64,000 nucleotides of DNA from positions 29,244 to 93,243 of the IMG/VR virus record IMGVR_UViG_3300019867_000001, one strand, 5' to 3'. Below the pieces are notes generated by a model. The model did no database searches, was not told where the DNA came from, and was given only the letters and a program-made list of their open reading frames with translations. The position numbers and the translations under genes were made by a program. Source of the DNA: a virus (lineage: Duplodnaviria > Heunggongvirae > Uroviricota > Caudoviricetes). Each line of letters opens with the position of its first letter. Positions within the stretch are counted from its first letter, which is position 1. This document shows positions 13,673 through 62,756 of this stretch, piece by piece.

Positions 13673-16600
13673 TCAATATACATTACTGTATAAGGCTTCA
13701 TTTAAAAAGTATCTTCTGCCTACTCTACTCTTCATTCGTCGTTTTTGTACACCATAAGTTTCTAATTTATAAATACCCTTGTCATCTGCAACATCCAGAA
13801 GTTTTACGCCTAGTTCAAACCATTCTTTTCGGCTACCTCTATAATTAGCCATATTATAAAGATCACGACCTAAACTAACAGCGAATTGATCTCTATCAGG
13901 CATATCAGCTAATGAAAGCCTATGGGCAAACTTTAAGTAAAATTCTGATAAATCACGGTCTGTTAGACTTAAAAAGTTTTTCTTTAGAGGCAATTTTGGA
14001 TCAATAAAAACCCTACCTAAAACTCCTCTTAACTCTCTTGCAATTTTAGGCGCAGTAGTATTTTCCCAAGTATTTCGCTTTTGTATATTCTCAAGAAAGT
14101 TATCATGTAAATCTTGTAATTGGACTGGTCCTAAAACTGGATCAATGTAATTTTCTTGCTTCAGCTTGAAAAGTAAATTAGCATCTTTGCGTATTTGTGT
14201 TTCAATGTAATCAGACACATTCATTACATCAAATTTCATTTGTCCATTTAGAACAGCTTTTAAATTAGCCCAAGGTATTTTGTTTTCACGTGCTCGTTGA
14301 AATATAATCCTTAAATTATCCGTTATAACAGCACGTTGATTAGTACCCATATGACCATCAAGGTCATCTACAAACTTAAGTATAAAGTCTTTATCTTTAG
14401 GTAGTAATACCTCTGATTCTTCTACTAGTCTTTTAGTATTCTCTAATACCTGCATATTTGGTTGGTAAATCCTTGCATCATCATACCTACCAGTAAAGGG
14501 ATTATACTTCAAATTATCTTCAGTAGGCGGTGAACTTAATACTCTAATTTTAGTATTACGTTTATTATGTAATAATGTACCCCTATAATTAGTAAGCGAA
14601 AGCATTCCATCCAACTCACCATCCTGTAGCAAATAATACTCTTTAAGTGCTTTTTGAAATTCTTTAGATTCTAAAATTTCATCAGGACGTGCTGCACCAA
14701 GTTTAAGAGTATCAAGTTTTTCTTTAGCTAATGCAAATCTACGTGTATCTCCTGGTAAAGCATAACCTGGATCTGTAAGTTTACGGAGTTCCTTAATACC
14801 TATTGAATTGCCTTCATCATTAGTAAATTTATCAAGAGTTAATTGTCCACTTCTGAATACTTCAAGTTTTTTGATATCTCCTAAATGCCTTAACTGAACT
14901 TCTGATGCTTGCCGCGTCAGCCATTCATTATAGGATTCCTTTAATGGAGACTGCCCATCATAAAATGCAATTTGCTTATCAGTTAATCCTTCGAGATTCC
15001 GTTTACGTATTTGGGCTATCCCTTCAAGTTCACCTAGTTGCTCATAGCTTTTTACAATCGGTATAGTAGAGGATCTACAATTACTACCCCAAATTATCTT
15101 ACCATTTCTTTTAGTAAGCAATGTATGCTTATCAGCTAATTCTATATCATAAACTTTGTATAGGCCATCACATTCAACTATAATAGTAGCATCCGTTAAC
15201 CTTCTATATTGACTTCTATTCCAAGCAATATGATAAACTAAATAATTACCATCAATTGTATCTCCATTTTTCTTTATAACAAAACTTGGAAGTCGTTCAT
15301 AAACACTTGCTGAATCCCCAACTTTAATTATAAGTTCACATAAATCTGCCATTAATTGTTTTGAAGTAGTAAAAAATTTTCTTACTAGATTTGAAGTATA
15401 TCCTTCAAAATCAGATTGTTTAACAGAAGTACCATCTCCTAACAAGTATGCTTCAAGAAAAACTAATAAATCACTTTTAGGTAAATTTTTAATTTCTTTT
15501 GGTATATACTTTTCAGTACATTTTCCAAATTTTAATAACCAATTATTTAAATTTTGATCAACAAAACCTAATCCAGTTTGACGATTAGATGGGTTTAATT
15601 CTTTTAATTCTTCTAACATTAATTGTTTATGTGTATACTGCGAAATACAACAATCAATGTAACCTTTATTTTTAATTGATACAGATCCATCCGATAACCA
15701 CCAAGCCATAAATTTACAAAATATAGAAACAGATGGAAATTCAAAATTATTTACAATTATTTTATCTATACTTTTGCCTATCCACTTAGATGATGCAAAC
15801 ATTCTAAAATCAACTTTAGGCGGTATATCTAAAATTGAATTATAATATTTTGGTAAATATTCTTTATAATTGCCTCTATCAACCCTCTTTTGTCCTATGA
15901 AAGGATGATCTGCAGTTACTGCGATGTCGACTGAAAATGCTTTTATAAAAATTATCTCTTCAACTTCTTTTTCAAATTTAGTTATAATTGGTTGCCAAGT
16001 TAAGTCTTCAGTTTCAGGATCTAAAGATAAACATTTTTCATTTATAATTGTATCTTTAATTAATTTAAATCCATTTTCAGTCAATACTTCTGTATCTTCC
16101 AGGTAACAGAAAAAGTGACTGGGCGGGAGATGACTTGTATCACTTATTGGGTACACAGTGCCATCTCGATGAGCACAAAGTGGCGTTGTTCTGCTATCCA
16201 ATACAGCAACATATTGCCATCCTTGTAATGCTTTTTCATTAACTTTATAAACTTCGTGATCTGTTTGAGCGTATACACTTGTAATAGCAGTAGTAACTAA
16301 GCCTTGAGATTGGTTCTTTGTTATTTTAAATATACTACCTTTACGTACATTTAAGGCTATTTCTTCTTCTGTAAGTCCTTCTGCTAATCCTTTACGTATT
16401 AACGATTCAATCCTAATCTTCTCACCTTTAGCAATACTATTCCAGCCTTGAGCTAGAGTTTGATTGCTATAAATTGGACGTGATAAAACTATATCCTCAG
16501 CTATCCTTCGAGTAGGCTTAGAAGTATGCCAAATTTTGCCTAAAGACGCATCTAAACTTTGATATGTATACGAAATTTGATCTCCAACTAAATCAAGCAA

Positions 16601-24355: not shown

Positions 24356-25082
24356 TAAAGCTCGTTAAACTTTAACCGAGTCTTGAAGATACCCAATTGC
24401 ACTTTTAAGACTATTTATATTGTCTTTAAAAGCACCTAAACCAGTATTACAAAAACCACAAAGAACACCACGAATTTCGCCTGTAAGATGATCATGATCA
24501 ATTACAGCTTCTTCACTAATATTCTTTCCATGGCCTTGTTTAAGTTTAAAATTTGTTATATTGCCACAAATCGCACATAGATTATTTTGCTTTTGAAGAA
24601 AAGAATCACGTTCTTCTAAAGATAAACTATGTTTACGTTTGTAATACCATTTTGATTGTCGTTCTTTACCACATTCTTTACAATAAGTTTGTAATTTATC
24701 TGCTCTATACGCATTATTACTAAACTCAGTAAATGTTTTTTCTTTACGACAAACATAACAAATTTTAAAACCTTCTCTTTGATTGAAATTTAATTTATTT
24801 CTTGTTAATGGAATATTTCCATTTTCAGTCAAATGTACTGGTAATTTAAACACTATATCTCCTAACTCTGCTATACATTACTGTATAGAGCAGACTATAT
24901 TATCAAAAGTCTTTAGTGGAGTAGCTTTTAAATTAAAGCCACATCCCAACCTTTGTTCGGCGCTTCCACTGGACTTCCAGTGTACTCCTTTACAGGATAG
25001 TCGTTGCACCTTCAAACTTTAAATTAAGCATACTTTGTATGCTAAACTCTTAGTAAGCTTGGCTCAGGATTGACCACGAGGG
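24356..25082 (-). mobile_element. group I intron-like element (family A) with EndoVII-type HEG, in terminase large subunit gene
   Basis: Family core 24880-25082 plus ORF 24365..24853. The family sequence overlaps the last codons of the exon-1 ORF, so the true 5' splice site is slightly upstream of 25083. Confidence 0.45.
24365..24853 (-). CDS. endonuclease VII-family homing endonuclease (intron-encoded)
   Basis: Cys/His zinc clusters typical of T4 endoVII-like nucleases (CAICG...DHDHLTGEIRGVLCGFCN). Confidence 0.5.
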   Translation of the reverse strand: MFKLPVHLTENGNIPLTRNKLNFNQREGFKICYVCRKEKTFTEFSNNAYRADKLQTYCKECGKERQSKWYYKRKHSLSLEERDSFLQKQNNLCAICGNITNFKLKQGHGKNISEEAVIDHDHLTGEIRGVLCGFCNTGLGAFKDNINSLKSAIGYLQDSVKV

Positions 25083-25958
25083 TTATCCCCTGAGTTCACC
25101 GAATTTTATATCGACCAATAAATCGATACCAATATGAATATCCTCAATGATATCCCCTTCATCATTCATTTTAAACCATTCTAAATCATTTCTAATATGT
25201 AGTTTTCGGTCAAAACAATAAAATACATTATTTCCTGATTCTTGGAATGATGCCAAATACTCCCTCGCGAATCGAATGGGGTCTATGTTATGACGAATAC
25301 GCTCTATTTCAACAGGATCTAAGAGTGGACTTGTTGTATAGTCAAGTTGGTAACTTTTCCAAGTGACGTCAGTATCCTGAAATGTAAACATTTCATAAAG
25401 ATAATCATAACCTTTAGGAGTACTAATAGTAAGTGACCTACCGCTTCGAGGACTTCCGTATTGCTTAGCCTGTTTTGGGCTCCAACGAGTTACTATGGTT
25501 GGCTGAATTATTGATTCCCAAGCTTCCTTTGCTCCTGGAGTTTTAGCCCAATCACGTATTTCATCATTAACGACATAATAAGCTCCACTTCCACGAAGTC
25601 TCTCTATTGCTTCAAAAGAAATTAACTTGAGTTCCACATTCTTAGGAAACCATAACCTGCCTGCATCACGAGAGTACTTCAAGCAATATCCTGATAAACC
25701 TAATTCATAGATAAGTAAAGGAAAGTATATTTCAGAAACCTGCGTATATGTTGGTGCAATAATTAATACATTTTTATTAGGCACAGACTCATCAAGTTGC
25801 ATGAGCTCAAATATAGCATTTGTTGCACAAGTGGCAGCTAAGAAAGATTTGCCCCAGCCTCTCGACGTCACTGCGACTATATTTTGTACTATATCCTTTA
25901 AGAATATTTCTGAGAATATCTCACTCTGCTTTGGGTGAAGTGTGATCGTTGAATTCAT
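25083..25958 (-). CDS. terminase large subunit, exon 1 (ATPase domain)
   Basis: Walker A VTSRGWGKS, Walker B-like VVNDE. Confidence 0.55.
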   Translation of the reverse strand: MNSTITLHPKQSEIFSEIFLKDIVQNIVAVTSRGWGKSFLAATCATNAIFELMQLDESVPNKNVLIIAPTYTQVSEIYFPLLIYELGLSGYCLKYSRDAGRLWFPKNVELKLISFEAIERLRGSGAYYVVNDEIRDWAKTPGAKEAWESIIQPTIVTRWSPKQAKQYGSPRSGRSLTISTPKGYDYLYEMFTFQDTDVTWKSYQLDYTTSPLLDPVEIERIRHNIDPIRFAREYLASFQESGNNVFYCFDRKLHIRNDLEWFKMNDEGDIIEDIHIGIDLLVDIKFGELRG

Positions 25959-27127: not shown

Positions 27128-27160
27128 AGAATTCTTAGTTTACACAGAAATACTGTTAAT

Positions 27161-27262
27161 ATTAATTTATTTACTATTTTTAACTTGCAAATAAAACAGT
27201 ATTAGTATTAACTGTATTTATTATTTTTAAATTGCAGATAAAAGTGTTAAAATATTAATTAT
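27161..27262. repeat. 102-bp direct repeat, copy 1
   Basis: Identical to 28070..28171 (attaatttatttactatttttaacttgcaaataaaacagtattagtattaactg...). Confidence 0.8.
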
Positions 27263-27344
27263 ATTTATTATTCTAAGTATAAACCACTATTATATAAAAT
27301 TTAATAGTATTATGTTTCGTTTTATTATAATATTATGTTTTATT

Positions 27345-27792
27345 TTGTTATAGTATTAGGTTTGTTATTATGTTTTATAGTATTAGGTTTGTTATTATGT
27401 TATAGTATTAGGTTTGTTATGTTTTATAGTATTAGGTTTGTTATTATGTTTTATAGTATTAGGTTTGTTATTATGTTATAGTATTAGGTTTGTTATGTTT
27501 TATAGTATTAGGTTTGTTATTATGTTATAGTATTAGGTTTGTTATTATGTTATAGTATTAGGTTTGTTATGTTTATAGTATTAAGTTTGTTATGTTTTAT
27601 AGTATTAGGTTTGTTATGTTTTATAGTATTAGGTTTATTATTATGTTATAGTATTAGGTTTGTTATGTTTTATAGTATTAGGTTTGTTATTATGTTATAG
27701 TATTAGGTTTGTTATGTTTATAGTATTAAGTTTGTTATGTTTTATAGTATTAGGTTTGTTATGTTTTATAGTATTAGGTTTATTATTATTAT
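27345..27792. repeat. tandem array A: about 19 copies of a 22-26-bp unit (atagtattaggtttgttat[tat]gtt[t]t)
   Basis: Read directly from the sequence. No unique spacers. Confidence 0.85.
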
Positions 27793-28069
27793 AATTTTAT
27801 ATAGGCATTAATAACATAAAAAATAGTATTAATGCCTATATTATAATTTTATTTAATTTTATAACATATAACTATTATATTTATTTTGGTTATTGTTTCT
27901 TATTATAATACTCTAGATAGACCAGTATATGTTAAGTTTACAGCTACATTTAAATAAATTTTACATTAAACTGGAATCTAAGTATTCAGATTTTATTTCG
28001 TTTTATAGAATAATGTTAAGGATTGTTTACTTAAATCATTATCTATAAGCAGATTTTAAAGCTATAAGT

Positions 28070-28171
28070 ATTAATTTATTTACTATTTTTAACTTGCAAA
28101 TAAAACAGTATTAGTATTAACTGTATTTATTATTTTTAAATTGCAGATAAAAGTGTTAAAATATTAATTAT
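28070..28171. repeat. 102-bp direct repeat, copy 2
   Basis: Identical to 27161..27262. Confidence 0.8.
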
Positions 28172-28208
28172 TTATTATAATTTAAAATATTATACAACTA
28201 TTTTACAT

Positions 28209-28550
28209 GATACTAAGTATTATAATACTACAATACTAAGTATTTAAAACTAACAACTAATATAATACTAAGTATTTAAAACTAACATGATACTAAGTAT
28301 TATAATACTACAATACTAAGTATTTAAAACTAACAACTAACATAATACTAAGTATTTAAAACTAACAACTAACATAATACTAAGTATTTAAAACTAACAA
28401 CTAATATAATACTAAGTATTTAAAACTAACAACTAACATAATACTAAGTATTTAAAACTAACAACTAACATAATACTAAGTATTTAAAACTAACAACTAA
28501 CATAATACTAAGTATTTAAAACTAACATAATACTACTAAGATTTAAAAAC
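28209..28550. repeat. tandem array B: about 10-12 copies of a roughly 31-bp unit (aactaacataatactaagtatttaaaactaac)
   Basis: Read directly from the sequence. Confidence 0.85.
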
Positions 28551-28792
28551 ATCATACAACTATTCATTTAATGTATAGATCGTCAATCTATCATTAAATT
28601 CTTAATTTGTCCATAATGGGTTAGCCCAATAGCTTTAGAGCCCATCCTGAAAGCTATTTACTACGGCTATTCTTTATTTTAATATCTTTTACTTTCAAAA
28701 ACTAAACCTTAAGGGAATCGTTCATATTAGGGTAAGTTTACAGCTGTTCTACCTAATCGCATAAACATTAAATCAATTTTTTCTATTAAATA

Positions 28793-28885: not shown

Positions 28886-29236
28886 TTAATCTTCAGTTTG
28901 TATTAATTTTAAATTTTCAATTTGTTTTAATTGTATATATGTAACTTTCCTTGTTTTTAAAAGTTTAATTAGTCTTAATTCTAAATTTTCAATTCGATCA
29001 TCTAAATTCGATTCTTTATGAATTACCTTATAGCCTACAGGAATTTCTCCATTATGATATACCCAAACTAAATTTTTTCTTAAATGATATTTATTATTAT
29101 ATTTAATTCTAAAACCTGTTCTATAATGCTGAAAACCAGCTTTCTCACCAGCTTTTGATGATCCAGCACTAATTAACCAAATAAATTCACCAGTTATTAC
29201 ATATGACAAAATCAAATGCCAATTAATTAATTGCAT
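28886..29236 (-). CDS. HNH-like protein
   Basis: HNH-type motif LVWVYHNGEIPVGYKVIHKESNLDDRIENLEL. Confidence 0.35.
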   Translation of the reverse strand: MQLINWHLILSYVITGEFIWLISAGSSKAGEKAGFQHYRTGFRIKYNNKYHLRKNLVWVYHNGEIPVGYKVIHKESNLDDRIENLELRLIKLLKTRKVTYIQLKQIENLKLIQTED

Positions 29237-29685
29237 GGTATTAACTCTAAATTTTCAATTTTATTATTTAATGGATTTTTATCTTTATGATAAATTGTAT
29301 ATCCTACAGGTATAGCCCCATAATGCATTTCCCAAATAATACGTTCTTCTGAAAATTCTTCTCCAAAAATAGCTTTAAGTGATTCTTCTGTAGCTTTATC
29401 ACCTGGTTTAATTATTAATTCTAAATTATCAATACGATTATTTAATTTATTTCCATCTATATGATTTAAAACCATTCCATTTATCATAGATTTGCCATGC
29501 GCAATCCAAACAATTTCAGCTACAGTAGAATCTTTTCCGAAAACAGCTTGTACTTCTGCATCTGTAGTTGTAGGAATTATACGTATTACTTCTTTTCCTG
29601 TGTCTTCATCAATCATACTAAATTCTTTCATTATTCTCACTGCTTCCTCCTTTTTTGCGAGAAACTCGCAAATATCCATCCCCAA
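29227..29685 (-). CDS. protein with two HNH-like repeats
   Basis: Two repeats: NHIDGNKLNNRIDNLELI and YHKDKNPLNNKIENLELI. Confidence 0.4.
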   Translation of the reverse strand: MGMDICEFLAKKEEAVRIMKEFSMIDEDTGKEVIRIIPTTTDAEVQAVFGKDSTVAEIVWIAHGKSMINGMVLNHIDGNKLNNRIDNLELIIKPGDKATEESLKAIFGEEFSEERIIWEMHYGAIPVGYTIYHKDKNPLNNKIENLELIPCN

Positions 29686-30880: not shown

Positions 30881-31522
30881 CTAATCTCCTGGTGGTGTCC
30901 ATACTGCCTCATTTTCCTTCAGATTCCTTCCTAAATTATTTGCAATTACACTACCAGTTGAACGCATCATACTAACAGTATCTGAAGTGGTAGCATACAT
31001 AGCTTTTATACCTTTTACTGTATTACTATAACCTGCTGTATTTGCCATGCTAATACCCATAGAGCCAGCTTCAGCAAAAGCATCTACATTAGCGCCTAAG
31101 TAAATAAATGCCCATTTACCTGAATCCTGTCGAGTTTTAATCATTGCTTGTATTTTAGCTTTTGTGTATTCATTCGAAGCGTTTTCTTCACCATCAGTTA
31201 CTATGACTACGATAGCACGTTCTGGTTGTTCACGCTTCCAATCTTCATCTAATTGATTAATTGTAGTGCCAATAGCATCTAATAGCGGTGTACCACCACG
31301 AGGCTGAAAATCATCAGGAGTTAGCAATTTGCATTCATTTAACGCCTGCATAGGCTTAAAACGCTCAATTGCACCTGTATCAAATCTCACAAATGCAATA
31401 CTAGCTGAATCAGGTAGTTTTTGTTGTTCAATAATGAATGTATTTACACCACCAATAACATCAGTTTCACGACCAGACATTGAACCGCTACGATCAAGTA
31501 TAAGACAAATCATTGATTTCAT
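30881..31522 (-). CDS. von Willebrand factor A (vWA) domain protein
   Basis: MIDAS DRSGSMSG ... T ... TDGEEN. Confidence 0.55.
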   Translation of the reverse strand: MKSMICLILDRSGSMSGRETDVIGGVNTFIIEQQKLPDSASIAFVRFDTGAIERFKPMQALNECKLLTPDDFQPRGGTPLLDAIGTTINQLDEDWKREQPERAIVVIVTDGEENASNEYTKAKIQAMIKTRQDSGKWAFIYLGANVDAFAEAGSMGISMANTAGYSNTVKGIKAMYATTSDTVSMMRSTGSVIANNLGRNLKENEAVWTPPGD

Positions 31523-31532
31523 ATTAATATCC

Positions 31533-32447
31533 TTATTTTACACTCATAAAAGGAATTGGCGCACTCCCATAAATACTAACAGGCAATACACCATTCCAAA
31601 CTTCTGCTTTCTTCATTTCGACTTCAATCCTGCGAAGTTCGAGTACATCCTTATTCTGTAATAAAGCAGCATTTTGGATCTTTAATGCTTCAGCTTGAGC
31701 TTTTGCTACTGTTAAATTGGCGTAAGCTTCACCATCCGCTTTTGCTTTTACTGCGGTAGCTTCTGCTTCAGCTGTGACTACCTTAATTTTTTGTTCAGAT
31801 ATAGTGGTTAATACTCTATTGTCTGCTGCAAGCTTCTTTTGCTCTTGAGTTGTTTTGTCATTAATTGCATCCATATAAGACTTTTGAAATGAGAAATTAG
31901 TCATATCTATATTAATTACTTGTGCACCATATAATGCTAACTTGGTCTTAAGAGCAGCATTTATATCACCTGATACTTGCGCTCTTTTAGCAATCAAATC
32001 CGGTGCAGTGTAATGTGCTGTGACAGCTTTAAATGTTTCCATGGTAGCAGTTTGTACATATGAGGCTAAATTACCATCATGAGAATACTTTTCAAATACT
32101 TCTGCTACTTTGTCAATCATAATGCTATACCTCACAGTCATACTCACATGTACAGGCTGAGTATCACTAGTACTACCTTCAGCGTCTTTAATGTCTGCAG
32201 TTTCAGCCCGAATACTGAAATTACTTAATTTCTGCCATGGTAGAAGTATTGTTAAACCTTCTGCTTCAATGCCTATTATTTTGCCAAATTGAGTTACAAC
32301 ACCACGACTACCAGTCGGAACTGAGTAGAACGGCCAGAGGAATATTATACTTAAAACAACACTTACAAAAATTCCACTAGTTTTTAACTTATTACTCATT
32401 AAAGAATTCTCCATGTGCTTCCTTTGCAATTTTGTTTTTAGACCCAC
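31533..32447 (-). CDS. SPFH/band-7 (prohibitin/HflKC-like) membrane protein
   Basis: N-terminal TM segment. SPFH-like core followed by a long Ala/Glu/Lys coiled coil. Confidence 0.55.
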   Translation of the reverse strand: MGLKTKLQRKHMENSLMSNKLKTSGIFVSVVLSIIFLWPFYSVPTGSRGVVTQFGKIIGIEAEGLTILLPWQKLSNFSIRAETADIKDAEGSTSDTQPVHVSMTVRYSIMIDKVAEVFEKYSHDGNLASYVQTATMETFKAVTAHYTAPDLIAKRAQVSGDINAALKTKLALYGAQVINIDMTNFSFQKSYMDAINDKTTQEQKKLAADNRVLTTISEQKIKVVTAEAEATAVKAKADGEAYANLTVAKAQAEALKIQNAALLQNKDVLELRRIEVEMKKAEVWNGVLPVSIYGSAPIPFMSVK

Positions 32448-32680
32448 AGACTGAACACCAATAGATTAATCATTTTAGGTGGTGATCTACATCTGAATTC
32501 AGGTCATGATTATCATCCTTATGCCAAAGTAAATTTTCATCCACTTACTATACCCATTCCGCGCCATGTCGTTGTATACTCATTATATGAATAGGTTGTA
32601 GGTGACAATCTATAAAAGATGTAAGAGTACCATGCTCCACAATCACATTTAAGATAAAATGGGTCAAAATGATTCATATT

Positions 32681-32749
32681 GAGCGACCTAGGTAAGAATT
32701 GAACTTACAGTCTATAGGATTGAAAGCCTTTGGCTCACCATGCTAGGTC
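32681..32749 (-). ncRNA. tRNA-like element (acceptor-like stem + T-arm); candidate Y-RNA module
   Basis: Minus-strand RNA GACCUAG...GUAAG-UUCAAUU-CUUAC-CUAGGUC. 7-bp terminal stem and a 5-bp/7-nt T-arm-like hairpin. No canonical anticodon arm. Confidence 0.25.
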
Positions 32750-32924
32750 ATATTACTTTTTCAGCTGCATTATAAGTCTTATCATTTATAGTTTCTTTTT
32801 CTCATTTGCACCTTCTGCTCAGTTAATTCACTTCTATCCAAGCTTAGTGAATGCATCGTATTTCGCGCCCATAACTCTCCAAAATCATCTGTTTCATCAA
32901 TCCATGATGAAATAATAGGAATTC

Positions 32925-33125
32925 CTACTTCACGCAAATCAGCACTGCGGCATCCTCTGCCAGTTGCTTATTTGCGATCATACTAGTAGGTAGCATTGGA
33001 TGATTCAATGCATCAGCAGCAGCTACAAGTTGTCCCATTAATCCAGTAACCTCATCATTACGTATTCCACATTCTGAATTAGCATCTGCTAGCTCGCACT
33101 TCAACCCGCGTGCAAACTCCACCAA
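32925..33125 (-). CDS. hypothetical protein fragment (possibly frameshifted with upstream 33126-33250)
   Basis: 66-aa ORF. An adjacent open frame lies in another phase. Confidence 0.2.
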   Translation of the reverse strand: MVEFARGLKCELADANSECGIRNDEVTGLMGQLVAAADALNHPMLPTSMIANKQLAEDAAVLICVK

Positions 33126-33387
33126 CCTTCCCCAATCGGAAACCGCATCTGCACCGAGAATATGGGCATTGGTGAATGTGACATGACAATCACTTCTGCA
33201 GCAGTATGCTCAATATAGAAAAGTGGGGCATTATCTAATTTCATTAATAAGTTATCATTTTTGCTCATTCTATAATGCACGAATAAATATCCTGTAAATT
33301 AAGTAGGCGATAGCTAAAATACGCCCAGTCCTTGTTTTCATTAGCATACACTAGACGAGAGAAAAGTGTTACACAAGGTGCTTTTAT

Positions 33388-33573
33388 TCATTTAAATTTA
33401 GTATCCAGAAATAGTATATTTTCTTTCATACTTGCTATAATTTCTTGTAAACGTTTAATTTTACGACGATAAACTAAACCACAAGTACAAGGTTCTCCAC
33501 ATTCATAGCCATGTGGGTCTTCCCATGCAGGACAATTTCTTTCATGTCTTAATAATCTATTCTGTTCGTTCAT
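33388..33573 (-). CDS. small Cys-rich protein
   Basis: 61 aa. CPAWEDPHGYECGEPCTCG. Confidence 0.25.
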   Translation of the reverse strand: MNEQNRLLRHERNCPAWEDPHGYECGEPCTCGLVYRRKIKRLQEIIASMKENILFLDTKFK

Positions 33574-33637
33574 ATACTATTTTTACTTCTTCAAGAGAAA
33601 AGCCCTAGAGTAATCAATTCATTCTAGGGCTATTTGG

Positions 33638-35038
33638 TTATTGTATCACAGCATAACGAGGATTATTAATTACAGTCATCATTATACTGTAAGGTGAGAG
33701 ATTTTCCAATTCACCTGCAAGTATTGCCTTTAATACTGTAGGTGAATAACCAGAAACCATTACAATTCCTGACTGATTTGCAGTAGCAGGTACGTTCTTA
33801 TATTCCCCGTTTAAATTCCAGAATACAATAATAGGTATTTTATAACCTGCCTCTTTGTATTTATATGCAATTGCCTCTACAGCAGTATTATTGCCATATT
33901 GATCGAATTGCATATCTGAAAGTACAAGGAGTATCTTGGGCATTTCTTCTTGTTTAGCTTCACGTCTGATTGCAATGCTAAGTAGTAATTCAACTGCACC
34001 TACGAGATTTGTATTACCACCCCAAGGAAGTTCCTTTAGCATTTCATAACGTTGCTTAAGTGTTCCCTCCAACTTAAAGATCTCAGGATGAGCATCAAAA
34101 TTCAATACTTCTCCGTGGAATGCTCCAAGCTGTTTCTCAGCGATATATAAGCCAAGTGAAACAGATATATCAATTGCTCGTAAATTCTTGTTTCCAGTGA
34201 TTGGGACTGTCATTGAGCCTGAAGTGTCTACCATTGCAAGAATTCCAAAATCCGAATTAAGGTAGTTTGGAAGAGCAAGCCACTGAGCCTCTGCAGTTTC
34301 TTCTTGCCCTGCAGTTAATCCTTTGAGGACATCATGAGGAAAGATTGCAGTAGCATTGATCTTAACACCTTCTTTGCCAGCTTTAAGATCTGCTTGCCAA
34401 GCAGTATAGCGTGTTTCTTGATGTTTCTTGAAAGCATTTTGATAAATCTTGCTTGCAATGGACGGAACGTGATTGAAGTTAATATCATCCCACTGCTTTG
34501 CACACATTTGGGATTCAACAACTTTGGTCATGTTGACCAGAAGCTTACGGTAAGCTTTTGGAGTAAGTTTCAAATGCTGCCGAAGCTGTGTTGCTATTGG
34601 ACCTTTACGTGGCATCCATTTAGCACAAAGCCCATTATTTGCTTTTAAGCCTTGGTTAATGATACTAAATGCAATATTCTGCATTGTGGGATTATCATCA
34701 AAAATCAATAAATCATCCCAACGGCCAAATTCAGGAACATGTTGCAAATTACGAACTAAAGCTTCCAAATCTACTTTAGCAAGTGCTTTAAGGATATCCC
34801 TAAAAACTTTCCTCTCGCCAGCACCACCGCGGATATCCCTTGCCCAAAAGAGAATCCTAAGAGCTTCTATTTTGAATTGAACGAATGCTGTTAAGAACAA
34901 ACCTACAATTGCCAGATTGTTCCTGGCTGCACCTATGGCAAAGAACAAGTCTACTAAAGGGTTAGTAGTACTCTTGTAAGCAATCATTTTATTTTGTGTA
35001 GTCGTTAAGTTACCACTGGTCTCGCCCAGAAAGCTCAT
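33638..35038 (-). CDS. rsr: Ro60/Rsr-like protein (TROVE + vWA domains)
   Basis: Helical N-domain with FVQFK...GRWDDLL and IFPHDVL, similar to Ro60 FIQFK / GWSHKDLL / IHPFHIL as I recall them. C-terminal vWA with MIDAS MVDTSGSM. Confidence 0.5.
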   Translation of the reverse strand: MSFLGETSGNLTTTQNKMIAYKSTTNPLVDLFFAIGAARNNLAIVGLFLTAFVQFKIEALRILFWARDIRGGAGERKVFRDILKALAKVDLEALVRNLQHVPEFGRWDDLLIFDDNPTMQNIAFSIINQGLKANNGLCAKWMPRKGPIATQLRQHLKLTPKAYRKLLVNMTKVVESQMCAKQWDDINFNHVPSIASKIYQNAFKKHQETRYTAWQADLKAGKEGVKINATAIFPHDVLKGLTAGQEETAEAQWLALPNYLNSDFGILAMVDTSGSMTVPITGNKNLRAIDISVSLGLYIAEKQLGAFHGEVLNFDAHPEIFKLEGTLKQRYEMLKELPWGGNTNLVGAVELLLSIAIRREAKQEEMPKILLVLSDMQFDQYGNNTAVEAIAYKYKEAGYKIPIIVFWNLNGEYKNVPATANQSGIVMVSGYSPTVLKAILAGELENLSPYSIMMTVINNPRYAVIQ

Positions 35039-35137
35039 TTGTTTTTACCTTTCAAAGTGTTAAGTCAGGTTGACACGTTTAAAGTCCGCCGACTTGATTA
35101 GCCCGAAGGCTAATAATTTTTGCGGAAGTCAACCATT

Positions 35138-35515
35138 TCATGTTTCAAGTGATTCATTAGCTTCTTGCCATACAAATTCATTAAGCGGAAAGTGTGCTTT
35201 ACATTTAGTACAAAACGTACCATTATAAAAACCAGGATCTCGTGCATATGTTTCTGCTAGTGATAGACTCATAGTAGTAGCAGTTTCACATTTAGTATGA
35301 ACATATGTTCTTCTAACTGGTCTTATAAATCCTTTAGCTCGTTCTGCTAAAGTTAAGACTACATAAGCTTCCTGTTGTCCATCATCACGAAGCTTAGTAT
35401 GTGAATTATCTTTTGGTACAGGTTGACCATTAGTTAAAATTCGATTATCACGATTGACTGGTGTAGGTTTAAATGGATCGTCAAGCATATCAACTCTACG
35501 TTCTAATGATTTCAT
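35138..35515 (-). CDS. hypothetical protein with C-terminal Cys cluster
   Basis: 125 aa. C..C...CTKC. Confidence 0.3.
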   Translation of the reverse strand: MKSLERRVDMLDDPFKPTPVNRDNRILTNGQPVPKDNSHTKLRDDGQQEAYVVLTLAERAKGFIRPVRRTYVHTKCETATTMSLSLAETYARDPGFYNGTFCTKCKAHFPLNEFVWQEANESLET

Positions 35516-36067
35516 TTTAATTCCTTTATCAGATTAACACGCTTTAAGTCCGTCGACTTCGGTGAGCCGTAAGGCTCGATTTGTTGCGGAAGTTAATCTT
35601 ATCATATCAGGTTGGTTTTATAGGTTTAGCTATAGCGAGATGTCTTTTCATCAGTCAAGTGGAATACCACTATTACTACCGGCATATAAATTGGTAGTGC
35701 TGAACCCAACCTTAAACAGGATCATGCCTTTCGGCGTTCATTTAACGGATGAGATTTTAGGTGCTGCAATGATCCTTAATACTAACAGACTCGTCCATTT
35801 TGTGAGAATGGTAACTCATCTCTATATATGATGCTGAAACGAGTCTTAATTACTGGATTGCCCCTTCCGGGTTTCGCTATAGGAATTTTGGGATGCTGTA
35901 GCAATCCATTGATATCTCCTATTATGGTAGTTCTTTAATTAATACTTCCATAATAATCCCTCTGCAGCCTATTAACATTACCGCTTGTATTGCAGTTATT
36001 TCTTTTCAGGATATAGTGCTGCTATTATTTTATTTGCTAAAGTTAATGCATCAGATTTATTCATAGT

Positions 36068-37108
36068 TTATGGTGCAAGTAAACATTCTACATCATTCCT
36101 TTTTGGTCCGTATGAGCGATAATTAAATTTTAAAAAGTAATTATCTTCAACTTTTTTCTGATCTAAGCATGTAATTGCAATCTTATAAGACGATGTACTG
36201 TTATTATGATCTTTAATAATTCTTTGTTCTAATTCTTTTATGTTTAATGGAGCATACCGTAATTTACCTTGAAATTTATTTTCAAAATTAGTTTCATCTT
36301 TAACCCAATTTGGTAATGGCTGCTCATTAACTAGTGGACCAGCACCATGTCGCGTTAAATAAGACCGAGATACATATATAGGATTAAGTTCTTTGATATC
36401 CCATTCATTACAAAGTTCTAATACATTTTTAATTCCAGTATTAGATGGTGTTAAATATGGAAACCCAGGATAATTTTGATCTAACATTAAACCTTGTGCG
36501 CCCTCAAATACAAAATTAGTACCTTTAGGTTTTTCACTAATTATTATTTTATCAAGAAATTTTTCTACATAACTAAAGTATATCTCTCTCCACTTTGCTT
36601 CAAATTCTAAATTAAAAAGATTTAAGTTTAATAATCTTTTAGGTATATATTCTTTTAAAATTCTATCATATACACTCTTATCTCTAATTGTTTTTACTTT
36701 TATACAGTATTTAGGATCTCTAGACCTAAGGACTGTTTCAAAAATTCCAACTCCACAAGTATCTAATTTCGCAATTGCTTGATTTATTAACATGTCAAGT
36801 GGTGTCGTTACAGTAGATGATGGATGTACATGTGTTGGTGATAATTGTAATTCGTTAAAGAATAAAATAGGATTGCAAATAAAGTGTTCACTTAAATAGG
36901 TCGGGATATTTAAGAAGCCACCAGAAGCATGATGGTGAAATACATTTCGTTCACCTTTAGGAGTTACAACAGAATGACCTGCCTGACTGCCACCATTAAA
37001 GCGAATTACAAAATCAGGGGAATGTTTTGAGCAAATATAATCTGTTATATGACCTTTTGATTCATCACCATAATTAGAACCTATGACAGCATATGCTTGC
37101 GCTTGCAT
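36068..37108 (-). CDS. adenylosuccinate synthetase (PurA)-family protein, short form; candidate PurZ
   Basis: GDESKGH / NGGSQAGHS / FEGAQGLMLD / TRHGAGP match the PurA signature blocks (GDEGKGK / QGGHNAGHT / FEGAQGTLLD / TRVGAGP). 346 aa, against about 430 for cellular PurA. Confidence 0.6.
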   Translation of the reverse strand: MQAQAYAVIGSNYGDESKGHITDYICSKHSPDFVIRFNGGSQAGHSVVTPKGERNVFHHHASGGFLNIPTYLSEHFICNPILFFNELQLSPTHVHPSSTVTTPLDMLINQAIAKLDTCGVGIFETVLRSRDPKYCIKVKTIRDKSVYDRILKEYIPKRLLNLNLFNLEFEAKWREIYFSYVEKFLDKIIISEKPKGTNFVFEGAQGLMLDQNYPGFPYLTPSNTGIKNVLELCNEWDIKELNPIYVSRSYLTRHGAGPLVNEQPLPNWVKDETNFENKFQGKLRYAPLNIKELEQRIIKDHNNSTSSYKIAITCLDQKKVEDNYFLKFNYRSYGPKRNDVECLLAP

Positions 37109-37109
37109 T

Positions 37110-37589
37110 TAATTTCCTTCATTATAAAATTCACCATGTAATGTTTTAGCTTTTTCATTGTATGCATCTCTAGCTTTTTCAGCAGTATCAAAGTAGCCGA
37201 GATGTATTATTTTTCTGAAGTGTAGTATTAAACATTTGTTCTTGTCTTGTCGCTAATCTTAGATTTTCAATTCTATTATTTAAGCTATTTAAGTCTTTGT
37301 GATCTATTTCAAATCCCTTTGGAATCTCACCATTAAACATTTCCCAAATGATTCTGGCTGCTGTAAAAGTAATTCTATTATAGCTAATTCGCCAGCTGCA
37401 ATAGCCATTCGAACTTTTACTAATATTACCTGCTAAATCACCAATATTAACATTATATGCAGGTTTGATTTTCCAAAATAGACTACCTTCGTCATATATA
37501 AAAATTTTATGCCAATTTATAACTTGAGTAATAGATGAAATATTATCAATTAAATATTCAGGTAATTTGAATTTTTCTTGTTCTTCCAT
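37110..37589 (-). pseudogene. HNH-AP2 homing endonuclease, disrupted (AP2 tail in another frame)
   Basis: ORF 37188..37589 ends ...IENLRLATRQEQMFNTTLQKNNTSRLL*. The AP2 C-terminus (…FDTAEKARDAYNEKAKTLHGEF) is readable downstream in a different frame. Confidence 0.4.
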
Positions 37590-37867: not shown

Positions 37868-38734
37868 TTAAGCAGGCAATAATGCTAAGTAACCAGGTAA
37901 TTCTTTTTGATGTATAGATCTAGTATTGCCAAGATTACCTTCATTCCTCTGAATAATAGAAATAATTCCATCTGCAAGTTTATTATGGTCTTTCAAACTA
38001 AAACAGTTTTGGCCTATTAATTTATTCCATGAATTTTGAACTGCAGGTAAGTCTCCTCTTGCATAATTGCCTTCTTCAATGATAATATGATAAGTATTAT
38101 AAATACGACTTACTAAATTATATAAGGCTTCTGCAGTATAATCTTGTTGTGGTGTTATTCCAATTACTTTTGCTATTTGCTCTTTTGTTAATATTGGTGG
38201 AGCTTCTTCATCACCAACAGTGAATAGATATCCTTTCTTTCCACGCTTTTCAAAGCAATCAATACTTGTGTGGAAAGCTGCAAAATACCAAGGGAAGCTA
38301 TATGATTCATGATCATTTCCACCACCACCACCTTCAAGCCATAAACCAGTTAATTGCTCCACAATTCTAATATCTGCTTCGAATTGAGAGACTTGGAGTG
38401 GAGCGCGATCATATGCCACATCCCCTATGCCCATGAACATAATATGTGGATCACTAACAGGTTGTTCATCGTAGAGCTTGTTAAACAGTATACCTAAACT
38501 TTTCTTAGCAATATCTTCCGATATGTGACCCATGCTGCCCGTTACGTCCAGCGCAATAACAATTGCGTTAGATTTAGGATTATCTGCTGAATCTCTAGAT
38601 TCACGAAATTTTACACCAAAAGGATTTAATTCCTCTTTAATACCTCGTGAAGTAAATCGTTGTTCACGAGAAAAATCTTGTGTTGTACTAGTATAGTTTG
38701 CATATGCTGTATGATCAAAACGACCACTGCCCAT
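37868..38734 (-). CDS. vWA domain protein
   Basis: MIDAS DVTGSMG. Confidence 0.5.
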   Translation of the reverse strand: MGSGRFDHTAYANYTSTTQDFSREQRFTSRGIKEELNPFGVKFRESRDSADNPKSNAIVIALDVTGSMGHISEDIAKKSLGILFNKLYDEQPVSDPHIMFMGIGDVAYDRAPLQVSQFEADIRIVEQLTGLWLEGGGGGNDHESYSFPWYFAAFHTSIDCFEKRGKKGYLFTVGDEEAPPILTKEQIAKVIGITPQQDYTAEALYNLVSRIYNTYHIIIEEGNYARGDLPAVQNSWNKLIGQNCFSLKDHNKLADGIISIIQRNEGNLGNTRSIHQKELPGYLALLPA

Positions 38735-38739
38735 GTTAA

Positions 38740-39322
38740 TTATCCTTTATTAAAAAATTCACCATGTAATGCTTTAGCTCTTTCATTATAAGCTTCTCCT
38801 GCTTCTTCAGGAGTATTAAAATAGCCGATATGAATAGATTTATTGTTTATTCTAATTGTTGCTACCCATTTTTTATCTCGTTTATGCCAAGAAACTCCTT
38901 TATAACCAGATGCATTATCTTTTCTAAGTACAGTATTAAAATTTTGTTCTTGTCTTGTGGCTAATCTTAAATTTTCTATTTAAACTATCTCTATCAATGT
39001 GATCTACTTCCATTCCTTCAGGTATAGCTCCATTAAACATTTCCCAAATAATTCTAGCTGCTATAAACGCTATTTTATTATATCTAACTTGCCAAGACTT
39101 ATAGCACTGTTTTGTTATTATTAAATAACCAGCCAAATCACCAATATTAACTCGTGCTGAAGGCTTTATTTTCCAAAATAAATTACCTTTATCGTATTCA
39201 AAAATTTCATAAATTGATATCTTCTTTTTGTTAGTTAATTGCTGCTTGTTTAAGGCACAAGCAGCAAAGCCTATTAAGCGACACCAGCACTTATTGCTAG
39301 TTATATCTAGAATGACTAACAA
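38740..39322 (-). pseudogene. HNH-AP2 homing endonuclease, frameshifted
   Basis: ORF 38936..39322 has the HNH part (MEVDHIDRDSLN). The AP2 part (GYKGVSWHKRDKKWVATIRINNKSIHIGYFNTPEEAGEAYNERAKALHGEF) lies in another frame. There is a small deletion relative to the paralogue at 47991-48020. Confidence 0.45.
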
Positions 39323-47722: not shown

Positions 47723-47759
47723 GTTTAAATTCTCCTTTTAAATTTAATAGGATTATATA

Positions 47760-48323
47760 TTATTCTCTATAAAATTCTCCATGTGCTTCTTTTGCAATTA
47801 TATTATATGCATTGCTAGCTTCTTCAGGAGTATCAAAATTACCAAGATGTATAGTTTTATTATTTATATCAATTTGTGCTCGCCATCTTTTTGCTTGTTT
47901 ATCCCAATAAATTCCTTTATAACCAGATGTATTATTTTTATGAAGCGTAGAATTAAACTTTTGCTGCTGTCTTGTAGCTAACCTTAAATTTTCTATTTTA
48001 TTATTTAAACTGTCTCCATCAATGTGATCTATCTCCATCTCTTCAGGTATAGTTCCAAAATGTATTTCCCAAATGAGTCTAGATGCTATAAAATTAATTT
48101 TATTATAACGAATTTGCCAGCTGCAATAACCATTTGAATTTTTACTAATATTACCTGCTAAATCACCAATATTAACATTATATGCAGGTTTGATTTTCCA
48201 ATACAACCAACCTTCTAAATACTTAAAAATATTATTCCAATTATATTTCCATATTTTTTTATTAATTAGGCTAGTGTTCACTATTATTCCAATTAGCATT
48301 AATGAATGAATCCATACTTTCAT
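47760..48323 (-). CDS. HNH-AP2 homing endonuclease (intact)
   Basis: MEIDHIDGDSLNNKIENLRLATRQQQ + GYKGIYWDKQAKRWRAQIDINNKTIHLGNFDTPEEASNAYN. Confidence 0.65.
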   Translation of the reverse strand: MKVWIHSLMLIGIIVNTSLINKKIWKYNWNNIFKYLEGWLYWKIKPAYNVNIGDLAGNISKNSNGYCSWQIRYNKINFIASRLIWEIHFGTIPEEMEIDHIDGDSLNNKIENLRLATRQQQKFNSTLHKNNTSGYKGIYWDKQAKRWRAQIDINNKTIHLGNFDTPEEASNAYNIIAKEAHGEFYRE

Positions 48324-56759: not shown

Positions 56760-56761
56760 AG

Positions 56762-62747: not shown

Positions 62748-62756
62748 AATTCACCA

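What the first reader, a model, noticed from the sequence alone, without database searches (positions are those of the whole stretch)
32681..35038. Ro60/Rsr orthologue (TROVE + vWA) with a tRNA-like element about 1 kb downstream: candidate phage Rsr-Y RNA module
- **Rsr-like protein.** ORF 33638..35038 combines a helical N-domain carrying Ro60-like blocks (FVQFK…, …GRWDDLL, IFPHDVL) with a C-terminal MIDAS-containing vWA domain. That is the Ro60/Rsr architecture.
- **tRNA-like element.** At 32685-32749 the minus strand can form a 7-bp acceptor-like stem (GACCUAG/CUAGGUC) enclosing a perfect T-arm (GUAAG-UUCAAUU-CUUAC). It has no anticodon arm.
- **Why that matters.** Bacterial and phage Y RNAs (YrlA-type) pair an Rsr-binding stem with a tRNA-like module that lacks an anticodon.
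- **Second candidate site.** The non-coding block 35520-36067 just upstream of the operon is another place a Y RNA could lie.
Basis: partly seen in the sequence, partly recalled or inferred. Interest (0 to 1): 0.75.

Follow-up and report, generated by a model that had tools for sequence, protein, structure and literature searches.

The report
Phage Ro60-like protein with RNA array

Summary

**tRNA-like element.** The element at 32684-32749 (-) exists: a 7-bp acceptor stem plus a T arm. It scores below the tRNA threshold (24.2 versus 29 bits). Its D arm is shortened and its anticodon arm is stunted, with loop CUUUCAA. It is not YrlA-shaped, and a terminator and 0.9 kb separate it from the gene. 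It is most likely a decayed tRNA.

**The better candidates.** Each has a terminal stem with compensatory changes, a (U)UCAGCAA or CCGCAA motif and a CUGU(U) tail.
- A model trained without window sequences finds two of them in the whole window (E 7e-5 and 3e-4).
- In 13 of 15 loci, including the window, such a unit ends 12-39 nt before the Ro-like start codon.
- Elsewhere the units sit inside phage tRNA arrays.
- They carry anticodon-loop mimics or YrlA-type tRNA-like domains.
- Rfam has no family for them.

**Verdict.** A phage Ro-like module with a variant class of Y-like RNAs.

The parts
33638..35038 (-). Ro60-fold protein gene (466 aa): helical ring domain plus vWA/MIDAS domain. Family DUF2828 + DUF7788 = PHROG 850.
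33594..33631 (-). Terminator-like hairpin (9-bp stem AGCCCUAGA/UCUAGGGCU) followed by UUUUCUCUU, just after the stop codon.
   Evidence: Sequence. Fold z-score -3.5 with 0 of 200 shuffles as stable.
35061..35138 (-). Unit B: small structured RNA ending 23 nt before the Ro-like start codon. Stem GGUUGAC/GUCAACC, motif UUCCGCAA, hairpins UUAGCC-UUCG-GGCUAA and AAGUC-GGCG-GACUU, tail UGAC.
   Evidence: R1 41.2 bits, but it was in R1's training set. Independent R2 gives only 10.4 bits, E 0.55. Fold z -4.5. Paralogue of unit A, with two compensatory changes in the stem.
35138..35515 (-). ORF of 125 aa between units A and B. No family match, and not conserved next to the gene in other loci.
35525..35602 (-). 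Unit A: stem AGAUUAAC/GUUAAUCU, motif UUCCGCAA, hairpins GAGCC-UUAC-GGCUC and AAGUC-GACG-GACUU, tail GAUA. It ends about 10 nt before the ORF125 start.
   Evidence: R1 45.3 bits, in training. R2 17.8 bits, E 0.01. Fold z -5.2.
35603..35711 (-). Possible long unit: GGUUGGGUU-CAGCAC...AACCAACC-UGAU. Found by eye only.
   Evidence: Sequence. Fold z -2.25. The model score is insignificant at 4.5 bits.
35712..35779 (-). Unit D: stem AGGAUCAU/AUGAUCCU, motif UGCAGCAC, hairpin UCAU-CCGUUAA-AUGA, hairpin GCC-GAAA-GGC, tail GUUU.
   Evidence: Not in any training set. R1 34.8 bits. R2 31.8 bits, E 7.4e-5 over the whole window.
35781..35849 (-). Unit C: AAG start, stem GACUCGUU/GACGAGUC, motif UCAGCAUC, tail UGUUAG.
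   Evidence: R1 57.2 bits, in training. Independent R2 29.5 bits, E 2.6e-4 over the whole window.
35852..35908 (-). Weak fifth unit: stem GGAUUGC/GCAAUCC, motif UACAGCAUC, tail AGU.
   Evidence: R1 10.2 bits. R2 14.6 bits, E 0.059.
32684..32749 (-). tRNA-like element: 7-bp acceptor stem, 3-bp D stem, stunted anticodon arm with loop CUUUCAA, canonical T arm, no encoded CCA. Probably a decayed tRNA. Its link to the module is not shown.

Best explanation
The window carries a phage Ro-like ribonucleoprotein module.

**Shown.**
- The 466-aa protein adopts the Ro60 architecture: a helical ring closed by a vWA/MIDAS domain.
- It belongs to a large phage family, PHROG 850 (Pfam DUF2828 + DUF7788).
- On the same strand directly upstream lies a tandem array of at least four, probably five or six, small RNAs of 60-110 nt.
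- Each unit has a terminal stem kept by compensatory changes, a single-stranded (U)UC(A/C)GCAA motif right after the 5' strand, a variable inner module, and a CUGU(U)/CUGA tail after the 3' strand.
- The same RNA family accompanies this protein family in unrelated phages and is interspersed with tRNA genes in phage tRNA arrays.

**Inferred.**
- The units are cut out of the operon transcript, as tRNAs are from their arrays.
- They bind the Ro-like ring through the stem plus the CAGCAA motif, as Y RNAs bind Ro60.
- They present their variable module to tRNA-directed enzymes or nucleases. In relatives that module is an anticodon-stem-loop mimic or a YrlA-type tRNA-like domain.
- The outcome would be RNA surveillance, repair or decoy activity during infection. 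The unit in front of the start codon could also give autoregulation.

**The tRNA-like element.** The element at 32684-32749 is most likely a decayed phage tRNA. It could be a remnant of the tRNA array that flanks this gene in most relatives. It is not the Y RNA.

For: **Family.** PHROG 850 at E 3e-129. 710 phage records carry it, and mycobacteriophage copies are annotated 'Ro-like RNA binding protein'.

**RNA family.**
- Model R1 gives 36 hits at E<0.3 in 15 sources, all on the strand of the Ro-like gene and at least one per locus. Units not used for training score 35-58 bits.
- By my count, a unit ends 12-39 nt before the start codon in 13 of 15 loci.
- In 40 non-window units the stem is 93% paired, and 6 of 8 pairs show changes on both sides.
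- Model R2, trained without window sequence, finds 35779-35712 and 35849-35781 as the only significant hits in 64 kb. It also ranks the three other units top in the region.

**Link to the gene rather than to tRNAs.** The window has no tRNA gene at all yet keeps the array next to the gene. Mycobacteriophage Lumos has three units directly after its gene, and one of them encloses a YrlA-like domain.

**tRNA relation.**
- In 11 of 15 viral loci the gene lies inside a same-strand tRNA array.
- 85 of 120 motif instances have tRNAs within 2 kb, and 867 of those 868 tRNAs are on the same strand. About 49 instances start 4-8 nt after a tRNA.
- About 24 of 40 short units hold a 5-bp hairpin with a loop of the form C-U-NNN-A-A.

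**Precedent.** Ro60 with Y RNA encoded next to it is known in bacteria and 22 phages (PMC4201824). Thermus phage phiLo Ro60 binds two upstream Y-like RNAs (PMC12135203).
Against: - No binding or expression data exist. The protein-RNA link rests on gene neighbourhood alone.
- Pfam TROVE does not match.
- Units A and B, the two nearest the ORFs, are divergent. They carry CCGCAA and score only 17.8 and 10.4 bits with the independent model.
- The training units for R1 were picked by requiring a stem, so part of the covariation is by construction.
- In the reverse test only 29 of 120 motif instances had the Ro-like gene inside the held stretch. Many units therefore lie far from the gene, or in phages that may lack it.
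- The position just before start codons also fits a purely cis-acting leader.
- No close relative of this phage exists in the collections: the nearest is 58% identical. Conservation of the window's own units and of the tRNA-like element could not be tested.
Confidence: 0.6

Rival explanations
1. The tRNA-like element at 32684-32749 is the Y RNA partner of the Ro-like protein: a YrlA-type RNA whose tRNA-like module lacks an anticodon.
For: - The element is clearly tRNA-derived, with an acceptor stem and a T arm, and is not a normal tRNA.
- It lies on the same strand, 0.9 kb downstream.
- In Citrobacter phage Ci1 (45% identical protein), two tRNA-shaped RNAs lie about 500-600 nt downstream of the gene. 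One of them is annotated as a pseudo-tRNA.
- Its loop CUUUCAA recurs in family units.
Against: - No YrlA hit at E<=10, and no hit with R1 or R2.
- It has the normal D-anticodon-T order closed by the acceptor stem. YrlA has a T arm, a stem-loop and a D arm inside a stem formed by the 5' and 3' ends (PMC4201824).
- It has no CAGCAA or GNCGAA motif. The Ci1 RNAs do carry CAGCAA-type inserts.
- A terminator hairpin follows the Ro-like gene.
- With its flanks the region folds no better than shuffles, z -0.27.
- It aligns generically to phage tRNAs, with deletions in the D arm and the anticodon stem.
Confidence: 0.12
2. The upstream units are cis-acting RNA elements that work without the Ro-like protein. 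They could be mRNA leaders, translational operators, or processing punctuation for RNase P, E or III in polycistronic tRNA and mRNA transcripts. Their neighbourhood with the gene would then only reflect shared residence in the phage tRNA region.
For: - Units end 12-39 nt before the start codon in 13 of 15 loci.
- Units A and B each precede an ORF.
- About 49 of 120 instances start 4-8 nt after a tRNA 3' end.
- Only 29 of 120 instances have the gene in the held stretch.
Against: - In phage SUSP1 and mycobacteriophage Lumos the units lie downstream of the gene or between tRNAs, not in front of an ORF.
- A conserved single-stranded motif combined with a hypervariable, tRNA-mimicking insert is typical of a protein-bound trans-acting RNA.
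- The window keeps the array beside the gene although it has no tRNA genes.
Confidence: 0.2
3. The protein is not an RNA-binding protein. It would be a vWA/MIDAS adaptor working with the neighbouring vWA and SPFH/Band 7 proteins, for example in a membrane-associated or assembly complex. The Ro60 likeness would then be only a shared scaffold.
For: - Other vWA proteins lie in the neighbourhood: the 213-aa vWA protein at 30881-31522 and an SPFH protein at 31533-32447. The 288-aa ORF at 37868-38734 has a DVTGS motif but no Pfam match.
- A homologue of the 213-aa vWA protein follows the gene in L005 and L006.
- A Band 7-like gene lies near the gene in Lumos.
- TROVE does not match.
Against: - Many invariant Arg/Lys lie in the helical domain.
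- There is a tight, repeated association with structured RNAs and tRNA genes.
Confidence: 0.08

Closest known systems
Ro60/Rsr with Y RNAs (Xenopus Ro, D. radiodurans Rsr-Yrn1, Salmonella and Mycobacterium Rsr-YrlA, Thermus phage phiLo Ro60-Yrl1/2)
   Same: Ring of helical repeats closed by a vWA/MIDAS domain. Small structured RNAs are encoded right next to the gene on the same strand. In relatives, some of these RNAs enclose a tRNA-like domain of the YrlA type.
   Different: No TROVE profile match, and 12-16% identity. The conserved RNA motif is (U)UCAGCAA beside a short terminal stem, not the GNCGAA/GGUCCGA helix. Many units are only about 60-70 nt. They carry an anticodon-stem-loop mimic instead of a T/D-arm domain. 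They occur in tandem arrays and inside tRNA arrays.
PHROG 850 / Pfam DUF2828 + DUF7788, annotated 'Ro-like RNA binding protein' in mycobacteriophages and 'RNA-binding protein' in Felix O1-type, Vibrio and Staphylococcus phages
   Same: Direct membership: E 3e-129, 3.6e-43 and 7.9e-27. 710 phage records carry it.
   Different: The nearest relative is only 58% identical. This phage has no tRNA genes in the 64 kb around the gene.
Dictyostelid Class I RNAs (Rfam RF01414; PMC7919456)
   Same: About 60 nt long. AAG start. A short terminal stem kept by compensatory changes. An 11-nt motif next to the 5' strand ending in CAGCAA. A CUGU end whose C pairs with the conserved 5' G. All of this is seen in the phage consensus UUUAGGAUAG-UUU-CAGCAA...CUAUCCUGUUG. 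The Rfam model gives 30.1 and 26.9 bits on two phage units.
   Different: Those scores are below the gathering score of 41.5, and there is no hit on the window's own units at E<=10. The known partner there is the RRM protein Rnp1A. The class was reported as absent outside Dictyostelia. Whether dictyostelids have a DUF2828 protein was not tested here.
Phage tRNA-array small stable RNAs (T4 rnaC and rnaD, species 1 and 2 RNAs)
   Same: Small RNAs of unknown function co-located with phage tRNA genes. The hairpin AAGUCGNCGGACU of window units A and B recurs in T4 rnaD.
   Different: T4 rnaC and rnaD do not match model R2.

Membership tests
Ro60/Rsr (TROVE + vWA) | Match to the Pfam TROVE profile | tested here: not met
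   No TROVE hit at E<=0.01 or E<=10. A profile search of PDB sequences gives only E 0.11 to phiLo Ro60, in the MIDAS stretch.
Ro60/Rsr (TROVE + vWA) | Helical-repeat ring closed by a vWA domain, superposable on solved Ro60 | tested here: met
Ro60/Rsr (TROVE + vWA) | MIDAS motif (DxSxS...T...D) in the vWA domain | tested here: met
   D271, S273, S275, T343 and D375 are invariant in 36 homologues.
Ro60/Rsr (TROVE + vWA) | Binds Y RNA on the outer surface and RNA ends in the central hole | not testable with these tools
   Needs biochemistry.
PHROG 850 / DUF2828 + DUF7788 | Profile matches above threshold over the full length | tested here: met
   PHROG 850 E 2.9e-129 covering residues 10-463. DUF7788 147.8 bits against a cut-off of 27.1. 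DUF2828 94.6 bits against a cut-off of 29.
YrlA-type Y RNA (RF02553) | Reaches the Rfam gathering score (69 bits) | tested here: not met
   No YrlA hit at E<=10 in 32300-36200. Relatives give sub-threshold hits: L012 29.4, L007 25.5 and Lumos 39.3 bits.
YrlA-type Y RNA (RF02553) | T arm, then a stem-loop, then a D arm, enclosed by a stem formed by the 5' and 3' ends | tested here: not met
   32684-32749 has the normal tRNA order closed by an acceptor stem. The window units lack T and D arms. The arrangement is present in relatives' long units, for example L001 4816-4933, L007 4628-4742 and L012 4463-4584.
tRNA | Rfam gathering score (29 bits), or an ARAGORN call | tested here: not met
   24.2 bits. 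ARAGORN finds 0 genes in the window.
tRNA | 7-bp acceptor stem and a canonical T arm | tested here: met
   GACCUAG/CUAGGUC and GUAAG-UUCAAUU-CUUAC.
Phage 'stem + CAGCAA' small RNAs (defined here, models R1 and R2) | Significant match to a model trained without window sequences | tested here: met
   35779-35712 scores 31.8 bits (E 7.4e-5) and 35849-35781 scores 29.5 bits (E 2.6e-4) over 64 kb. Units A, E and B score 17.8, 14.6 and 10.4 bits.
Phage 'stem + CAGCAA' small RNAs (defined here, models R1 and R2) | Same strand as the PHROG 850 gene and adjacent to it | tested here: met
   All window units lie on the minus strand within 23-870 nt upstream of the gene. The same holds in L001-L016.
Dictyostelid Class I RNA (RF01414) | Rfam gathering score (41.5 bits) | tested here: not met
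   No hit on the window array at E<=10. Relatives score 30.1 and 26.9 bits.
Dictyostelid Class I RNA (RF01414) | AAG start, 6-bp terminal stem, 11-nt motif ...CAGCAA, CUGU end, about 60 nt | tested here: inconclusive
   Units 35849-35781 and 35779-35712 read UUAAG-stem-U(U/G)CAGCA(U/C)...stem-CUGUU. This is a likeness by inspection against the description in PMC7919456. Homology is not shown.

The most novel reading that the evidence does not exclude
The small RNAs next to phage Ro-like (DUF2828) genes would be the same kind of RNA as the dictyostelid Class I RNAs. They share the size, the AAG start, a covarying terminal stem, the ...CAGCAA motif and the CUGU end. That would mean Class I RNAs are Y-RNA-like partners of a DUF2828-type Ro60 relative. 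In phages the scaffold would display anticodon-stem-loop mimics (Lys UUU, Thr UGU, Tyr GUA, Glu UUC, Asn GUU, Arg UCU). These would act as decoys or baits for host anticodon nucleases or tRNA-modifying enzymes.
Probability: 0.2. Interest if true: 0.85.

Novelty: new variant of a known kind. Interest (0 to 1): 0.62.

Why it matters
- Ro60-Y RNA particles are known from animals, some bacteria and a few phages. What they do is still poorly understood.
- The result links a very common phage protein family (710 phage records, more than 7000 metagenomic homologues) to a defined small-RNA family that has no Rfam entry and is easy to model.
- That family sits inside phage tRNA arrays and mimics anticodon arms or whole tRNAs.
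- This gives a concrete, testable idea for the protein: tRNA-directed surveillance, repair or decoy activity during the conflict over host tRNA cleavage. Cultivable models exist, including Felix O1-type phages, SUSP1 and mycobacteriophage cluster L.
- It may also give a first lead on the unexplained dictyostelid Class I RNAs.
- For annotation, pseudo-tRNA and hypothetical non-coding calls near these genes should be re-read as RNA genes.

Tried and rejected
- **Pfam TROVE at relaxed E:** no hit.
- **PDB by sequence:** nothing useful for the single protein, and only E 0.11 with the profile.
- **NCBIfam and PADLOC** on the protein and its neighbours: nothing informative.
- **Rfam at E<=10** over 32300-36200 and 35040-35920: no YrlA, Y_RNA or Class I hit in the window.
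- **ORF125 as a conserved partner:** no homologue in any locus.
- **Exact-pattern scans of viral contigs** for the window's unit A/B core and for the tRNA-like 3' half: no match. No close relative is available to test their conservation.
- **T4 rnaC and rnaD as members of the RNA family:** no significant R2 hit.
- **AFDB Foldseek search** to look for eukaryotic members such as Dictyostelium: library not available.
- **A Y-like extended stem around the tRNA-like element:** the 161-nt context folds no better than shuffles, z -0.27.
- **Literature searches** for DUF2828, 'Ro-like' plus Y RNA plus phage, and anticodon-nuclease decoys: no description of this RNA family found.
Full report
**1. The protein**

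ORF 33638..35038 (-) encodes 466 aa. Pfam gives DUF7788 (E 3.6e-43) and DUF2828 (E 7.9e-27), plus a sub-threshold VWA_2. TROVE does not appear even at E<=10. PHROGs places it in phrog_850, 'RNA-binding protein', at E 2.9e-129 over residues 10-463.

More than 7200 homologues were found. The best non-self hit is only 58% identical. A sibling contig, L015, is the same phage.

Sequence comparison with solved structures is nearly blank. There is one marginal profile hit (E 0.11) to the Thermus phage phiLo 'TROVE domain-containing protein', in the MIDAS stretch.

An AlphaFold model built from 36 homologues has pLDDT 84.8 and pTM 0.80.
- In Foldseek against the PDB the first 12 hits are all Ro60: phiLo Ro60 at E 1e-10, and Xenopus Ro (1yvr) at TM 0.66. 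Alignments span about 500 columns.

The MIDAS residues D271, S273, S275, T343 and D375 and many Arg/Lys of the helical part are invariant.

So the Ro60 architecture is real. The protein is a separate, distant family rather than an orthologue. tblastn finds the family in 710 phage records. These include Felix O1-type, Vibrio, Listeria, Staphylococcus and Campylobacter phages, jumbo phages and mycobacteriophages. Some copies are annotated 'Ro-like RNA binding protein'.

**2. The tRNA-like element**

- The Rfam tRNA model gives 24.2 bits, below the gathering score of 29, with E 0.079 for 3.9 kb times 4227 families. For the tRNA family alone over the whole window that is about 3e-4, so the element is tRNA-derived.
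- ARAGORN finds no tRNA in the 64 kb.
- The Rfam alignment shows a 3-bp D stem with a 4-nt loop and a 2-3 bp anticodon stem with loop CUUUCAA. The arms are stunted rather than missing.
- Against 1513 tRNAs from related phage loci it aligns generically. It shares the T arm AAGUUCAAUUCUU and the AUAGAC variable region, with deletions in the D arm and anticodon stem and no CCA.
- It is not YrlA-like. No YrlA hit appears at E<=10. It has the normal arm order and no closing stem formed by the RNA ends. With flanks it folds no better than shuffles, z -0.27.
- A terminator-like hairpin with a U run follows the Ro-like stop codon, z -3.5. About 0.9 kb with small ORFs lies in between.

I read it as a decayed phage tRNA.

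**3. Context in relatives**

I fetched 14 viral loci with homologues at 42-48% identity. In 11 of 15 loci the gene lies inside a same-strand array of tRNA genes. One further locus has a tmRNA.

Rfam at relaxed thresholds gave sub-threshold YrlA hits just upstream of the gene in L012 (29.4 bits) and L007 (25.5 bits). It also gave a tRNA-like hit lacking the acceptor ends in L007, and a sub-threshold 'Dicty_Class_I_RNA' hit (30.1 bits).

**4. The upstream RNA array**

Reading 35030-36130 (-) showed a two-copy element in front of ORF125 and in front of the Ro-like ORF. The closing stems are GAUUAAC/GUUAAUC and GGUUGAC/GUCAACC, which differ by two compensatory changes. UUCCGCAA follows the 5' strand.

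The upstream regions of relatives hold similar units. A simple scan found the consensus UAGGAUAG-NNN-CAGCAA...CUAUCCUG-UUG in almost every locus, on the gene's strand.
- Short units of 58-70 nt hold one small hairpin.
- Long units of 100-170 nt enclose a T arm, a stem-loop and a D arm, which is the YrlA arrangement.

Model R1, built from 12 units, gave 36 hits with E<0.3 in 186 kb. All lie on the strand of the Ro-like gene, with at least one per locus. Untrained units scored 35-58 bits, including a fourth window unit at 35779-35712. From, a unit ends 12-39 nt before the start codon in 13 of 15 loci.

R1's training units were chosen by requiring a stem. I therefore built R2 from 40 non-window hits. 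Their stem is 93% paired, and 6 of 8 pairs show changes on both sides.
- Over the whole window R2 finds only 35779-35712 (31.8 bits, E 7.4e-5) and 35849-35781 (29.5 bits, E 2.6e-4).
- With filters off, the next best hits in 32000-36500 are 35602-35525 (17.8 bits), 35908-35852 (14.6 bits) and 35134-35068 (10.4 bits). All are in the array and on the minus strand.
- Units A and B fold far better than shuffles, z -5.2 and -4.5.

**5. Breadth of the RNA family**

- In phage SUSP1 two units lie among the tRNAs after the gene.
- In mycobacteriophage Lumos three units follow the gene, each with a stem and CAGCAA. The middle one encloses a YrlA-like domain (Rfam YrlA 39.3 bits, full model).
- In Citrobacter phage Ci1 two tRNA-shaped RNAs lie downstream of the gene, and one of them is annotated as a pseudo-tRNA. 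Both carry UCUACAGCAA or UUCAGCAUC inserts in place of the anticodon arm.

In a reverse scan for TAGGATAGTNNCAGCAA in viral contigs I analysed 120 instances.
- 29 have the Ro-like gene within the held stretch, always on the same strand.
- 85 have tRNAs within 2 kb, and 867 of those 868 tRNAs are on the same strand.
- About 49 start 4-8 nt after a tRNA.

About 24 of 40 short units carry a 5-bp hairpin with a 7-nt loop of the form C-U-NNN-A-A. The loops are CUUUUAA, CUUGUAA, CUGUAAA, CUUUCAA, CUUCUAA, CUGUUAA and CUCUUAA. These are anticodon-stem-loop mimics.

No Rfam family reaches its gathering score on these units.

**6. How it probably works**

Shown: the Ro60 fold, the conserved RNA family, and its position and strand.

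Inferred, from the Ro60-Y RNA paradigm (PMC4201824; PMC12135203):
- the units are processed from the operon transcript;
- they bind the ring through the stem plus CAGCAA;
- they present tRNA-like modules to tRNA-directed enzymes or nucleases;
- the unit before the start codon may also allow autoregulation.

The main rival is a protein-independent cis or processing role. The units' positions in SUSP1 and Lumos argue against that. So does the window itself, which keeps the array without any tRNA genes.

**7. Comparison and novelty**

Phage Ro60 with adjacent Y-like RNAs is known: 22 phages in PMC4201824, and phiLo in PMC12135203. The protein family is routinely annotated.

What differs here:
- the protein family fails the TROVE profile;
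- the RNA motif is CAGCAA beside a short stem, not GNCGAA;
- the units are short and arrayed;
- they are embedded in tRNA arrays;
- they carry anticodon-loop mimics.

The family consensus also shares every feature listed for dictyostelid Class I RNAs: about 60 nt, AAG start, covarying 6-bp stem, 11-nt motif ending in CAGCAA, and CUGU end (PMC7919456). The scores are below threshold, and the window's own units give no hit. This stays a hypothesis.

**8. Verdict**

The module is real and of a known general kind. The proposed Y RNA is probably a dead tRNA. The real interest lies in the upstream RNA array.

Noticed in passing
window 8599-13716 (-), with related fragments near 24953-25107: Five group I introns above the Rfam gathering score (66.9-97.8 bits) lie within 5 kb on the minus strand. 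Repeat families D19 and D20 show a further intron-like fragment near 25 kb.
   Followed up: no
window 37188-37589, 38900-39223, 47759-48242, 56759-57109, 61049-61506, 62753-63035, 29227-29472: There are many paralogous copies of an HNH_3 homing-endonuclease gene with a conserved upstream block (repeat families D1 and D4-D8). The genome is riddled with mobile endonucleases.
   Followed up: partly
window 27153-28561: Dense tandem and interspersed repeats, including about nine copies of a 32-nt unit (TAACATAATACTAAGTATTTAAAACTAACAAC) at 28194-28561 and other repeats at 27328-27789. Function unknown.
   Followed up: no
L015 9886-9889, corresponding to window 34880-34955: The sibling contig (JGI 3300019869) is otherwise virtually identical to the window (99.99-100%). 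It lacks 76 nt inside the 5' part of the Ro-like gene. That shifts the frame, and the gene was called there from an internal ATG (376 aa). It is either a natural variant or an assembly error.
   Followed up: partly
L016 5358-5436 and 5437-5750: In the closest relative (58% identity) a twister-sister ribozyme (40.4 bits against a gathering score of 34) starts right at the stop codon of the Ro-like gene. About 300 nt of GC-richer non-coding sequence follows.
   Followed up: no
window 35537-35559 and 35073-35095 (-); L141 3136-3148 (-) = T4 rnaD: The hairpin AAGUCGNCGGACU of window units A and B also occurs in phage T4 species 2 RNA (rnaD). It occurs nowhere else in the 141 loci held (about 1.4 Mb).
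   Followed up: partly
L019 5891-6005 and 6012-6125 (Citrobacter phage Ci1): Two tRNA-shaped RNAs lie downstream of the Ro-like gene, behind a perfect sigma-70 promoter. The second is annotated tRNA-Pseudo in the record, and the first has no annotation there. Both have the anticodon arm replaced by an insert carrying the CAGCAA-type motif.
   Followed up: partly
A4 units (for example L001 3034-3107, L022 331-402): The hairpin UUGA-CUUUUAA-UCAA in several units equals, from memory, the anticodon stem-loop of E. coli tRNA-Lys(UUU). Other units mimic the Thr, Tyr, Glu, Arg and Asn anticodon loops.
   Followed up: partly
window 30881-31522 and 31533-32447; L005 5679-6260; L006 2533-3006; L021 1723-2655: A 213-aa vWA protein recurs downstream of the Ro-like gene in L005 and L006. 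A Band 7/SPFH gene lies near it both in the window and in mycobacteriophage Lumos. This may be a wider conserved neighbourhood.
   Followed up: partly
L001 2391-2465; L014 3962-4035; L005 2019-2343: The tRNA arrays around homologues include predicted amber-suppressor-type tRNAs (anticodon CUA). One locus has a phage-borne permuted tmRNA.
   Followed up: no
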